A stretch of 64,000 nt of DNA from Escherichia coli O157:H7. GTDB taxonomy: Bacteria; Pseudomonadota; Gammaproteobacteria; Enterobacterales; Enterobacteriaceae. The stretch lies in NCBI RefSeq assembly GCF_013167455.1, contig NZ_CP038328.1; one strand, given 5' to 3'. Positions 42,001 to 45,000 of the stretch are shown here, piece by piece; positions within the stretch are counted from its first letter, which is position 1; every line of letters starts with the position of its first letter. A program made the position numbers.

Positions 42001-45000
42001 AGATCTGTACTCAGGCATGGGATGAGATCTGCGTTATTATCATCTGTAATAAAAGTAATATCCCGACTAGTCATAAATTCGTCGTTCAAATAAATGTCGA
42101 CCCGATATGTACCAGGTGGTGCCTCGCGTCCCTTAGTAAAGGCGGATAAATCGACAGATTCAGCAAGATCATTGCTTAAAAACCGTGGATTAAAATAATA
42201 CTCTGCGTCAACGGGAAATACCGCAGTTGCTAAGCTAAGGGCAATGGTAAGCCGTGCAAAGCGAGGCAGTAGTAACACCTGATGCATACGATATGCCTTA
42301 AATGCGGCACGAAAGGCTGTCATTATTAATTCCGATTGAGTTTATTATTAATTAGGTCACTGGCTTACTGCATGGTTGCCTTAATACGCGGAGTTAATGC
42401 GCCGTAATCATTGATCGTCTGAAAACTGATATCCCCGGTGGCAGCATGCGGGATATCCACCGACACTTCACCTTTTGGCGGCACCATGGTGTTTGGGAGA
42501 TTGCTATTTCCTGCTTTCATATTTGTTACGGTAATGAAGTAGGGCGTTGGATTAATAAGAGTGAGATTGCTACCGCTGCGACGAAACCGAAGCATTGCAG
42601 GCGCTTCTTCAGGTGCCATTGCCAGGTTCGTGGGCCGATAAAACATTTTTATGCGGCTAATAATTGCCAGCTGTAATGTATTCTCATTCTTCTGGTCTTT
42701 TTCCATAGCAGGAATAGCTTTAACATTAACCCAGAACAGGCTTTCACGGTCGCCGGGTAACTGATGATTAGTGGCGTTGATTATCCGCAGCGTATTCTCT
42801 TTTTTACCTTGCATGGAAAAAAGAGGTGGGGTAATGACAAACTGGGTGTCTTTTTGGTCACCAGCATTTTCTATCCATGACTGAATGAGATAGACACTGG
42901 CAGGATCATTATTCGTGACAGGCAATAAAACCTGTTTCTGGTTTGCCGGATAAATTACCCGCGTCGCACCCAGTGCGACAGCTGCGTTGGCAACGGTGCT
43001 ATGGCAAGCAAAGAGCAATAAAAGTAACACTGTCGCCATAAAGGAAATAGAGTAGGGGGTACGCGTAGTTTGCATCTGATGCATTCTCCATGTGTTAAGA
43101 GGATAAGCGGGAAAACCGTTACATCAGACAATCGGTAAATGTTGCTAATACATTGGCGAGTCACCGGGTTTCCAGACTTAATGCGTTTGTAATAAAGGTT
43201 GGTTCTCTTTTAATAGGAAAACCTTGCTAAAAAGTAAATATTTTTAATAACAGTAAGTTTAACTACTGTTGTTTATTGAACGTTTAGATATTATGTGATT
43301 TTTCATAGCGCTCCAAATACAAACCACTCATCATTAATAATGAGATTCACATTGGTGAATTGCTCGGGTGTGCGTAGCCATGCCACACACACCCTGTTTT
43401 AATTTCAGATGCCGTATAGCCACCTTAATATTGAATTATAGATATTGAACTTTGAAGGTCGCATCTGCGTTTGCAGTACCAGCTACGGACTGCCCGAGAG
43501 CAATATAACGAGCCTGGAATGGTAGTATATTCGTGCCATCAATCAAGTCGGTTTTAGCACTAAAAGTGGCCCCATCAAGTATTAATACCTCACCCGTACG
43601 GTCCAAAATTTGAATACCGACATTTTGGGCAGAGCCTGCCGCTGAACTCTGCAGCGCTAACGTATCGTCATTACTGGTGACAGTAGTACCCAGGAATGCA
43701 ACAGCTGCATTACTGGAAACATTGGTATCACAATCATTCAGCTTGATATTGAAGCCAACGGCGGAGCTGAGGTCACCCGCTTTAGCCAGGCGAGAAGAAC
43801 GAACCTGACCCAGCTCAACCGTTTGGTTCATTGATTCGGAATCAATCGCACAAGCGGCATTTACCACTTCACCTTTAAAATGAATAACACCGCCATTAAC
43901 AGTGGTCGTTACTGATTCATCACCCTCGGCTGCGCTTACCGCAGCAGACGACATCGCCAACACAGAAACGACAATCATACCAACATGTTTGAGTTTCATA
44001 ATTCTCCAAAATTTATATTTAAGTAGCTGAATAAAGAGAGTTAACAATTAAGTCATTCTGTTATTGCTTATAAAACAAGAATCATTCTTGATTGGTTGTT
44101 GCCCTGAGAATATAGTTTCCAGGGTTATTACATTTCACGAAGAACGATAATATCTTTAAATCACAAGGACACCTAATCACAACAAGTTTATTGCTGCACT
44201 TGTTGAAGAGAGTATTTGCAAAAACATTTTATGTCGCTAAATAACATGACGATTTCATTATGCATGTTATTTATAAACCGTGACTAAACAGAATATTATT
44301 GCGAACAAGGGAAGTGTCAGGAAAGGTCAAGGGCTACTAATGGTTTATATGGCTATAAATCATTAGCTATAGTTAATGTTTGCCTGGTGTAACTAACACC
44401 GAATTGCTCTAAACAGATAAGTGCAGGGTTTATTAAAGCTGACCGACAGACTTTCTTAACCTGGTAATATCTCTCTTGGGTGACTCTCCAAACATCCGCA
44501 AATATTCCCGTCGGAAATGGGATAAGCTTTCGTAACCGACAGCATAGGCTGCTGTGGTGACATCGTAATGTTCATTCAGCATCGTTCGCCTGACTTCATT
44601 GAGACGTAGCCATTTCTGATACCGGAGTGGACTCATTCCCGCAAGCTGCCTGAAGTGTTGATGGAAAGAGGGCGTGCTCATTTGCACGCGGTTTGCCAGC
44701 TTGAGTCTTCAACGCTGGGAAGATGCGGCAAACGGCAAATCGGCATACCAGCCAGCCTATATCCGTCATGCACAGGCCAATTATGAAAGAGGAGAAGCTT
44801 AAGTTCTGGAATCCTGAACGAATAACGACTACCGGAAAATCACTTCGTATCACTCAGATACGATTTAACATAATATACATTATGCGCACCAATATAAACC
44901 AAGGGAGAATCTAGTCGTTGGCGGTCATGATTGTCCTGCTCATTAACAACGACCAAACCCCATATCTTACTCTTACTTAATACCGTATTCTCGGCTTAAC

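What the first reader, a model, noticed from the sequence alone, without database searches (positions are those of the whole stretch)
44433..44972. yneL is reduced to an isolated AraC HTH
Only an 84-codon C-terminal AraC helix-turn-helix is present, starting at a GTG with a stop immediately upstream; the roughly 285 bp before hipA cannot encode a sensing domain. With the truncated hipA next door, this suggests the stretch between the F9 operon and the autotransporter is a zone of gene decay.
Basis: seen in the sequence. Interest (0 to 1): 0.25.

Follow-up and report, generated by a model that had tools for sequence, protein, structure and literature searches.

The report
Dead yneL regulator remnant beside dif
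This is the known yneL pseudogene of E. coli: the last 89 codons of a roughly 304-residue AraC-type regulator, stranded by deletions next to the chromosome's dif (dimer-resolution) site, so it is an ordinary gene remnant, though its origin can now be traced.

Summary
The window is E. coli O157:H7. ORF 44433-44687 (-) is a Pfam HTH_18 match (E 8e-21). Homology to intact relatives runs five codons further, to 44702, and stops there. NCBI's PGAP annotation already marks 44433-44702 as a pseudogene, and K-12 lists the same locus as pseudogene yneL (b1506).

Intact orthologs in Enterobacter, Citrobacter and Klebsiella are 303-304 aa (AraC_N + HTH_18, 31% identical to YqhC). They are transcribed divergently from a Fe-alcohol dehydrogenase (33% identical to YqhD), an alpha/beta hydrolase and a DUF2255 gene. 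No functional ortholog of about 84 aa was found.

The 285-bp "spacer" is not empty. About 5.4 kb of ancestral module has collapsed to about 0.5 kb.

E. coli lineages carry three non-nested relic patterns, so the module was deleted independently several times. K. pneumoniae ATCC 13883 lost it separately. hipA (a 615-bp deletion that also removes hipB) and the autotransporter are dead too.

Verdict: already known, low interest.

The parts
44433..44702 (-). yneL' pseudogene: codons 216-304 plus the stop of a 304-aa AraC_N + HTH_18 regulator. The first codon (AAG) spans the deletion junction.
   Evidence: PGAP marks it as a pseudogene 'missing N-terminus'. tblastn of the 310-aa relative P0122 aligns only its residues 218-300, to 44702-44454. 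It is 86-89% identical in protein to the intact orthologs.
44433..44687 (-).
   Evidence: No Shine-Dalgarno motif precedes the GTG or the ATG two codons later (read directly).
44709..44711 (-). In-frame TGA that closes the yneL' frame. It lies in antisense hydrolase-relic DNA.
44701..44702 (.). Deletion junction. It joins the middle of the hydrolase gene to regulator codon 215/216. The deleted span is 2.68 kb measured against E. vonholyi, or 1.57 kb against C. youngae, which lacks the ADH.
   Evidence: Parental and junction sequences are compared; blastn coordinates are.
44701..44761 (+). Alpha/beta-hydrolase relic: 20 internal codons, LSLQRWEDAANGKSAYQPAY.
   Evidence: 88-97% DNA identity to intact hydrolase genes. 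80-90% protein identity, E down to 9e-10. Pfam places the intact gene in the Peptidase_S15 / DLH / Abhydrolase_1 group.
44783..44862 (+). DUF2255 relic: the start codon and about the first 26 codons (MKEEKLKFWNPERIT...), with a 16-bp internal gap. It ends flush against dif.
   Evidence: (E 5e-5 and 3e-4). The intact gene matches Pfam DUF2255 at E 1e-39. This is the weakest of the relics, but it is colinear with the others.
44863..44890 (-). dif, the XerCD chromosome-dimer resolution site: GGTGCGCATAATGTATATTATGTTAAAT.
   Evidence: 28/28 identity to the experimentally defined E. coli dif quoted in PMC3025954. It is invariant or differs by one base in the Enterobacter, Citrobacter and most Klebsiella loci (two mismatches in L007). 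KOPS motifs: 9 on the + strand and 0 on the - strand to its left, 0 and 2 to its right.
44891..44972 (.). 82-bp flank between dif and the hipA stop codon.
   Evidence: Single copy and conserved wherever hipA is present.
44973..46082 (-). hipA' pseudogene. Homology to intact hipA ends at 46041, so the first 85 codons are missing.
   Evidence: PGAP; Pfam HipA_C only; alignment to intact loci.
46038..46041 (.). Junction of the 615-bp deletion (4-bp overlap) that removed the hipA 5' end, hipB and the hipBA promoter.
   Evidence: measured against L009 and L010.
46153..51581 (-). Frameshifted ECSE_1600-family autotransporter (the K-12 yneO pseudogene).
   Evidence: PGAP 'frameshifted'. ORFs are split at about 47550. 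The gene is intact in other strains.

Best explanation
yneL' is an inert 3' remnant of a YqhC-like transcriptional activator (AraC_N sensing domain plus AraC-type DNA-binding domain, about 304 aa). In the ancestral arrangement the regulator lay next to dif. It was transcribed divergently from an operon of a Fe-alcohol dehydrogenase, an alpha/beta hydrolase, DUF2255 and, in the E. vonholyi arrangement, a flavodoxin-like oxidoreductase. This arrangement is still intact in Enterobacter vonholyi and partly intact in Citrobacter, other Enterobacter and Klebsiella.

By analogy with YqhC-YqhD, the module was probably an aldehyde or electrophile detoxification unit switched on by its own regulator. 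That functional assignment is an inference. In the O157:H7 lineage, three illegitimate deletions reduced about 5.4 kb to about 0.5 kb. Two junctions were inspected and show only 0-3 bp of microhomology.

- One deletion runs from the base after dif into DUF2255.
- One runs from just upstream of DUF2255 into the hydrolase gene.
- One runs from the hydrolase gene, across the ADH (if it was present) and the shared promoter region, into regulator codon 215.

What remains has no promoter, no ribosome-binding site, no native start codon and no sensing or dimerisation domain. It also lacks helix 1 and the start of helix 2 of the DNA-binding domain, and the divergent operon it lay next to is gone. dif itself survived, presumably because deletions that remove it are selected against (inference).
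For: Shown by tool results:
- HTH_18 match, and PGAP pseudogene calls in O157 and K-12.
- The family is AraC_N + HTH_18, 300-320 aa.
- Five species representatives carry open 303-aa orthologs that are 85-89% identical over the retained part.
- Protein homology in the window stops at residue 218 of P0122 (310 aa), which is codon 216 of the 304-aa ortholog.
- Upstream DNA is not homologous to the regulator's 5' part; the alignment score equals the shuffle mean.
- Instead, that upstream DNA matches colinear pieces of the hydrolase gene, DUF2255 and dif.
- The junction sequence was resolved against both parental sequences.
- The regulator is 31% identical to YqhC (E 6e-39) and the ADH is 33% identical to YqhD (E 4e-63).
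- Across E. coli, 4312 of 5426 genomes carry some remnant and 1190 carry the O157-type block.
- The K-12 type keeps a different hydrolase-flank piece, starts 59 bp further into the gene and has a 1-bp frameshift.
- The B2 strain F11 keeps only another hydrolase piece and no regulator. These three patterns are not nested.
- No E. coli genome has the intact module at dif. 86 genomes have a full-length copy (>=80% of the module query, regulator ORF open) in the argW/intS island, and it is as diverged from yneL' (dS 0.38) as the orthologs of other genera.
Against: - The 89-codon frame is still open in the O157-type allele.
- dN/dS between two E. coli alleles is 0.36, not 1 (7 synonymous and 9 non-synonymous changes; too few to decide).
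- A 2022 paper reports microarray signal for yneL in K-12 (PMC9308461).
- The ancestral function is inferred only from gene order and roughly 30% identity to YqhC and YqhD.
- The DUF2255 relic rests on weak similarity (80% over 45 bp).
- Other Escherichia species were not examined.
Confidence: 0.9

Rival explanations
1. The open 84-89-codon frame is expressed as a small stand-alone HTH protein. It might resemble MarA or SoxS, or act as a competitor at the sites of YqhC-type paralogs, and so be retained for function.
For: The frame is open in 1190 genomes. dN/dS is 0.36 between two alleles. Microarray expression is claimed in PMC9308461. Three independent deletions (O157-type, K-12-type, K. pneumoniae ATCC 13883) all keep the last 210-270 bp of the gene.
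Against: Helix 1 and part of helix 2 of the seven-helix AraC domain are missing. From memory, MarA (~127-129 aa) and SoxS (107 aa) keep the complete domain. There is no Shine-Dalgarno motif, and the native promoter is deleted. The commonest E. coli allele, the K-12 type, is shorter and frameshifted. About 20% of genomes lack the fragment. Its presumed target promoter is deleted.
Confidence: 0.05
2. The fragment arrived in E. coli already truncated, as a scrap carried by a mobile element inserted at dif, and was never a complete gene at this locus.
For: The dif flank takes up mobile DNA: a filamentous prophage in F11, tyrosine integrases in MB06231 and a 7.8-kb island in WCHEC4533. The intact module is also found as cargo of the argW island.
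Against: The three E. coli relic patterns keep different, non-nested pieces of the module. These map to L011 coordinates 4750-4831, 5168-5264, and 5261-5323 plus 8002-8060 (the extra 5' stretch of yneL' that the K-12 type lacks). The E. coli ancestor therefore had at least hydrolase through regulator in contiguous form. Order and orientation relative to dif match Enterobacter, Citrobacter and Klebsiella.
Confidence: 0.05
3. The native gene is a short MarA-like protein of about 116-140 aa, so E. coli has lost only about 40 codons rather than a sensing domain.
For: The first homology search returned only proteins of 52-160 aa, including 128-aa Klebsiella entries.
Against: Those 128-aa proteins are the last ORF of a full-length gene broken by frameshifts in noisy assemblies. 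Residues 10-303 of P0122 align across three frames. The species representatives carry open 303-aa genes with a strong AraC_N domain (E 4e-45). The other short hits inspected read as fusions or mis-called ORFs on truncated loci.
Confidence: 0.01

Closest known systems
E. coli K-12 yneL (b1506), annotated pseudogene
   Same: Same locus, between the F9 fimbrial genes and dif/hipA. Same gene remnant, same strand, and same 3' end and stop codon.
   Different: The O157:H7 allele is longer (89 versus about 67 codons) and not frameshifted. It arose by a different deletion. It keeps an internal hydrolase piece, whereas K-12 keeps the hydrolase 3' flank.
YqhC (activator of yqhD-dkgA), AraC_N + HTH_18 subfamily of AraC/XylS regulators
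   Same: The intact orthologs of yneL share the two-domain architecture and are 31% identical to YqhC over 255 aa. They are also transcribed divergently from a YqhD-like Fe-ADH that is 33% identical to YqhD.
   Different: They are paralogs, not orthologs. The operon content differs: hydrolase, DUF2255 and a flavodoxin-like protein instead of dkgA. The effector is unknown. In the window only the last 29% of the protein remains.
Full-length AraC family regulator WP_000622442.1 in the argW/intS (CPS-53-type) island of 86 E. coli genomes
   Same: 88% identical in protein over the retained 89 residues. It sits beside the same hydrolase and Fe-ADH partners.
   Different: It lies at a different chromosomal site, inside a prophage-like island. 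dS to yneL' is 0.38, so it is a separately acquired copy and not the source of yneL'.
MarA / SoxS stand-alone AraC DNA-binding proteins
   Same: Small proteins made only of AraC-type helix-turn-helix motifs.
   Different: They contain the complete seven-helix, two-HTH domain (from memory; MarA crystal structure). yneL' lacks helix 1 and the start of helix 2, and it has no expression signals.

Membership tests
AraC/XylS family DNA-binding domain (Pfam HTH_18 / HTH_AraC) | Significant match to the domain profile above the curated cut-off. | tested here: met
   HTH_18 scores 74.6 bits against a cut-off of 33.6; HTH_AraC scores 30.8 against 26.6.
AraC/XylS family DNA-binding domain (Pfam HTH_18 / HTH_AraC) | Complete bipartite domain: about 100 aa, two HTH motifs, including helix 1 ahead of the first HTH. 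| tested here: not met
   Alignment A1 starts at column 232. About 20 residues (IGKAIDWLKTNIASPLRVEE) present in all intact relatives are absent.
AraC_N-type (YqhC-like) regulators | N-terminal AraC_N domain (PF06719) ahead of the HTH. | tested here: not met
   Absent from the window in all frames. Present in the orthologs at E 4e-45 to 2e-52. The fragment descends from this family but is not a functional member of it.
AraC_N-type (YqhC-like) regulators | Close sequence relationship of the retained part to intact family members. | tested here: met
   86-89% identity to the 303-aa orthologs and 71% to P0122.
Pseudogene (unitary, truncated) | Coding region incomplete relative to intact orthologs, with a definable lesion. 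| tested here: met
   The junction at 44701/44702 was resolved against both parental sequences. 215 of 304 codons are missing.
Pseudogene (unitary, truncated) | Further independent lesions or losses within the population. | tested here: met
   K-12-type frameshift and a shorter remnant, complete loss in the F11 type, and fusions to the fimbrial gene (PMC9308461).
Pseudogene (unitary, truncated) | Relaxed selection (dN/dS near 1). | tested here: inconclusive
   0.36 within E. coli against 0.03-0.17 among intact orthologs. The ratio is raised, but it rests on only 16 substitutions.
Pseudogene (unitary, truncated) | No transcription or translation of a product. | not testable with these tools
   Only indirect evidence is available. 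The native promoter is deleted, there is no Shine-Dalgarno motif, and the promoter scan is at chance level.
dif (XerCD chromosome dimer resolution site) | 28-bp sequence: XerC arm, 6-bp centre, XerD arm. | tested here: met
   28/28 identity to the E. coli dif given in PMC3025954.
dif (XerCD chromosome dimer resolution site) | Located where KOPS polarity converges. | tested here: met
   9 forward and 0 reverse motifs to the left; 0 forward and 2 reverse to the right.
dif (XerCD chromosome dimer resolution site) | XerCD/FtsK-dependent recombination activity. | not testable with these tools
   Needs an experiment. Activity is established for the identical K-12 site, according to the literature.

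The most novel reading that the evidence does not exclude
Retention of the 3' HTH-coding stub may not be random. Three independent deletions end within 59 bp of each other inside the regulator gene, at E. vonholyi L011-equivalent positions 8002 (E. coli O157-type), 8023 (K. pneumoniae ATCC 13883) and 8061 (E. coli K-12-type). All three keep the last 210-270 bp. This could reflect selection for the stub, either as a small HTH protein or as DNA that matters next to dif or upstream of the neighbouring genes. It could equally reflect a deletion hot spot in the terminus region.
Probability: 0.08. Interest if true: 0.4.

Novelty: already known. Interest (0 to 1): 0.15.

Why it matters
As a feature it matters little. 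yneL is a catalogued pseudogene, and PGAP already flags the O157:H7 copy.

The follow-up adds three modest points:
- It identifies what the gene once was: a YqhC/YqhD-like regulator-reductase-hydrolase module sitting beside dif.
- It shows that the 'spacer' is a stack of gene relics ending flush against dif.
- It shows that the module was lost at least three times within E. coli and once in K. pneumoniae.

Together these give a small, clean example of recurrent deletion in the immediate flank of the replication terminus, with dif as the fixed point that deletions do not cross. The practical lesson for annotation is that the short 'AraC family regulator' or 'HTH domain-containing' proteins called at this locus, and the apparent YneL-FimA fusions discussed in PMC9308461, most likely reflect deletion and mis-called ORFs rather than real variants of a transcription factor.

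Tried and rejected
1. A short MarA-like native gene. This was suggested by the 116-140-aa hits. It was rejected because those are terminal ORFs of frameshifted or truncated loci, and clean genomes carry 303-aa genes.

2. A frameshifted continuation of yneL upstream of 44702. I noticed 'GYRLAGMPICRLPHLPSVEDSS' in another frame, loosely resembling helix 1. It was rejected because local DNA alignment to the Klebsiella gene scored at the shuffle mean. The stretch is the antisense of the hydrolase relic.

3. Xer-mediated deletion between dif and a pseudo-dif site in DUF2255. It was rejected because the best dif-like site in DUF2255 has 10 mismatches out of 28. The junction shows only 2-3 bp of microhomology.

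4. A matS site inside yneL' as a reason for its retention. None is there. The two perfect matS sites in the window are at 14097 and 60677.

5. A structured RNA in 44000-46200. Rfam gave nothing credible; the best match was 13 bits against a gathering score of 105.

6. Promoter and terminator scan of 44300-45100. Two promoter-like sites were found against 1.2 expected, and one of them overlaps dif. This is uninformative.

7. dN/dS as a test of neutrality. There are too few substitutions to decide.

8. GC skew as a marker of the terminus in the 64-kb window. There is no clean switch; KOPS polarity was informative instead.

9. A search for an E. coli genome with the intact module at the dif locus. 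None was found. The >=80%-coverage hits I opened (H60, H111) lie in the argW/intS island, and the listed ones carry the same hydrolase / ADH / AraC annotation. The rest of the 86 were not opened.
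Full report
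**Identity of the window and the observation**

The 2.1 kb around the finding is 100% identical to E. coli O157:H7 chromosomes. ORF 44433-44687 (-) has 84 codons and starts at GTG. It matches Pfam HTH_18 (E 8.1e-21, profile positions 6-76 of 80) and HTH_AraC. Translating further upstream in the same frame gives ...ASSQR*RLKLANRVQMS.... The in-frame stop is therefore TGA at 44709-44711, seven codons above the GTG. PGAP annotates 44433-44702 as a pseudogene, 'helix-turn-helix domain-containing protein; missing N-terminus'. In K-12 MG1655 the same locus is the annotated pseudogene yneL, b1506.

**What the intact gene looks like**

A first word-indexed search returned only short proteins of 52-160 aa. 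This briefly suggested a MarA-like native size. An exhaustive HMMER search with the longest Klebsiella form showed otherwise. The family is 300-320 aa, with the HTH at the C-terminus, and carries an AraC_N domain (PF06719, E 4e-48 to 2e-52) ahead of HTH_18.

A scan of species-representative genomes found close relatives in only six enterobacterial species, at 85-89% protein identity. The next-best loci, mostly Pseudomonas, are at 72-73% or below. In five of the six the reading frame is open for 303 aa. These are Enterobacter vonholyi, Citrobacter youngae, Enterobacter sp. MGH24, Klebsiella michiganensis and Enterobacter mori.

The 128-aa Klebsiella 'proteins' are the last ORF of a full-length gene broken by frame changes in noisy assemblies.

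**Where homology stops, and why**

tblastn of the 310-aa relative P0122 aligns only residues 218-300 to the window, at 44702-44454. In alignment A1 the fragment covers codons 216-304 of the 304-aa protein. It lacks the AraC_N domain and the linker. It also lacks about 20 residues of the DNA-binding domain itself (IGKAIDWLKTNIASPLRVEE), which are helix 1 and the start of helix 2. It is therefore less than 'an isolated AraC HTH'.

The DNA upstream of 44702 shows no similarity to the regulator's 5' part. The local alignment score was 24, against a shuffle mean of 23.8. It matches other things instead:

| Window coordinates | What it matches | Strength |
|---|---|---|
| 44701-44761 | 20 internal codons of an alpha/beta-hydrolase gene that lies 1.5-2.7 kb from the HTH region in the intact loci | 88-97% DNA identity; LSLQRWEDAANGKSAYQPAY, 80-90% protein identity |
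| 44783-44862 | Start codon and about the first 26 codons of a DUF2255 gene | 74-80% DNA identity; protein E 5e-5 |
| 44863-44890 | A 28-bp core that is invariant across genera | See the dif section |

All pieces are colinear and in the same orientation as in E. vonholyi locus L011. The main junction was resolved base by base. The hydrolase antisense sequence ...CAGCGTTGAAGACTCA is joined to AGCTGGCAAACCGCGTGCAAATG of the regulator, between 44702 and 44701.

**The ancestral module**

In E. vonholyi (L011) the order of features is as follows.

| Feature | L011 coordinates | Strand |
|---|---|---|
| dif | 2956-2983 | |
| Flavodoxin_2 protein | 3277-3879 | - |
| DUF2255 | 3962-4351 | - |
| alpha/beta hydrolase | 4849-5922 | - |
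| Fe-alcohol dehydrogenase | 5943-7091 | - |
| regulator | 7359-8270 | + |

The regulator is 31% identical to E. coli YqhC (E 6e-39). The divergent Fe-ADH is 33% identical to YqhD (E 4e-63). The unit is therefore a paralog of the yqhC-yqhD arrangement. By analogy it was probably an aldehyde or electrophile-responsive detoxification operon activated by its own regulator. This functional statement is an inference from architecture and roughly 30% identity; it was not tested. In O157:H7, L011 positions 2908-8272 (5.36 kb) correspond to window 44431-44938 (0.51 kb).

**dif**

44863-44890, read on the minus strand, is GGTGCGCATAATGTATATTATGTTAAAT. It is identical at 28 of 28 positions to the experimentally defined E. 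coli dif site quoted in PMC3025954. KOPS motifs (GGGNAGGG) switch polarity exactly there: 9 forward and 0 reverse to the left, 0 forward and 2 reverse to the right. Two perfect matS sites also lie in the window.

dif lies next to the module in E. vonholyi, C. youngae, Enterobacter MGH24 and K. pneumoniae as well. The DUF2255 relic ends flush against the XerD arm. The junction shows 2-3 bp of microhomology, and there is no dif-like site in DUF2255, so ordinary illegitimate recombination is more likely than Xer-mediated deletion. I infer that deletions can run up to dif but not through it, because losing dif is costly.

**Population picture**

Of 5426 complete E. coli genomes, 4312 carry some part of the 430-bp block and 1190 carry the O157-type form. 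The K-12-type allele is not a derivative of the O157 type. It keeps the hydrolase 3' flank (L011 4750-4831), which O157 lacks. It lacks the internal hydrolase piece, starts 59 bp further into the regulator (L011 8061) and has a 1-bp deletion. The B2 strain F11 keeps only L011 5168-5264 of the hydrolase and has lost the regulator entirely. Three non-nested states require a longer ancestor within E. coli and independent deletions.

K. pneumoniae ATCC 13883 lost 5.28 kb in one step relative to other K. pneumoniae. That deletion truncated the regulator at L011-equivalent position 8023. No E. coli genome has the intact module at dif. The 86 genomes with >=80% coverage of the module appear to carry it in the argW/intS prophage-like island, which I confirmed in the two I opened. 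That copy is as diverged from yneL' (dS 0.38) as the orthologs of other genera.

**Neighbours**

hipA' results from a 615-bp deletion with a 4-bp overlap at 46038-46041. It removes hipA codons 1-85, hipB and the promoter. The autotransporter at 46153-51581 is frameshifted. Counting yneL', the hydrolase relic, the DUF2255 relic, hipA' and the autotransporter, five consecutive dead genes flank dif. The F9 operon to the left is intact in O157. 'Zone of gene decay' is a fair description, and more precisely it is the flank of the terminus.

**Is the stub functional?**

Arguments for function:
- The frame is open in the O157-type allele.
- dN/dS between two E. coli alleles is 0.36, based on 16 changes.
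- A paper reports microarray signal for yneL (PMC9308461).
- Three independent deletion endpoints fall within 59 bp of each other.

Arguments against function:
- The DNA-binding domain is incomplete.
- There is no Shine-Dalgarno motif, and the native promoter is deleted.
- The promoter scan is at chance level.
- The commonest allele is frameshifted, and about 20% of genomes lack the fragment.
- The presumed target promoter is gone.

I put the inert-pseudogene reading at about 0.9.

**Verdict**

The added value is the reconstruction of the ancestral dif-adjacent YqhC/YqhD-like module, the recognition of dif inside the 'spacer', and the evidence for repeated independent loss.

Noticed in passing
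window 44863-44890: The 28-bp chromosome dimer-resolution site dif lies inside the finding's coordinates, 28/28 identical to the published E. coli sequence. It is 161 bp from the yneL' junction and 82 bp from the hipA stop codon.
   Followed up: yes
window 7491-38230 (+ strand) and 47246, 48034 (- strand): KOPS motifs (GGGNAGGG) are all forward to the left of dif (9) and all reverse to the right (2). This is the polarity switch expected at the terminus.
   Followed up: yes
window 14097-14109 and 60677-60689: Two perfect matS consensus sites (GTGACRNYGTCAC), against 0.35 expected by chance. This is consistent with the Ter macrodomain.
   Followed up: partly
window 46038-46041: Junction of a 615-bp deletion that removes the hipA 5' end (85 codons), all of hipB and the hipBA promoter in O157:H7. 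Strain NRZ105822 (L002) has a larger deletion, from 45033 to 46038.
   Followed up: yes
window 46153-51581 (-): The ECSE_1600-family autotransporter is frameshifted at about 47550. It is intact in strains IDR1900005638-01-02 and MB06231.
   Followed up: partly
L094 28449-36260 (E. coli WCHEC4533): About 7.8 kb lies between dif and the DUF2255 relic. It encodes LysR, a glutamine amidotransferase-like protein, two aldo/keto reductases, an NAD(P)H oxidoreductase, a quinol monooxygenase and a carboxymuconolactone decarboxylase. The far junction carries a degenerate dif-like sequence (GTCAATTATGTATAT...AGTTAAAT). It may be a Xer-integrated element or the remnant of one. hipA is truncated at its 3' end in this strain.
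   Followed up: partly
L010 920-3854 (E. coli MB06231); L096 1-3500 (E. coli F11): Other DNA abuts the XerD side of dif in other lineages. MB06231 has two tyrosine integrases. F11 has a filamentous prophage (Zot-family protein, secretin) next to dif.
   Followed up: partly
L091 9040-12484 and L095 7076-10520: 86 of 5426 E. coli genomes carry a full-length copy of the hydrolase / Fe-ADH / AraC_N-regulator module. In the two I opened it sits inside the argW/intS prophage-like island. PGAP calls the Fe-ADH there incomplete, although a 382-codon ORF is open.
   Followed up: yes
L016 7546-8300 (K. pneumoniae ATCC 13883): An independent 5.28-kb deletion next to dif leaves an 85-codon HTH stub. Its breakpoint is only 21 bp from the E. 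coli O157-type breakpoint. A truncated aldo/keto reductase sits on the other side of dif.
   Followed up: yes
window 44761-44762; L096 5097; L011 5261-5264: The O157-type and F11-type deletions end within 2-3 bp of each other in the hydrolase gene (TTTATTAT|AGG) but extend in opposite directions. This could be the footprint of a lost insertion with a short target duplication, or an AT-rich hot spot. It is unexplained.
   Followed up: partly
L011 10112-10225 (E. vonholyi): A second, 114-bp partial copy of the regulator's 3' end (83% identical to window 44424-44537) lies about 1.8 kb downstream of the intact gene.
   Followed up: no
L012 5150-5877 (C. youngae): A HigB-toxin / HTH_3 antitoxin pair sits between dif and the hydrolase gene. 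E. coli instead has hipBA on the other side of dif. Toxin-antitoxin modules recur in the dif flank.
   Followed up: no
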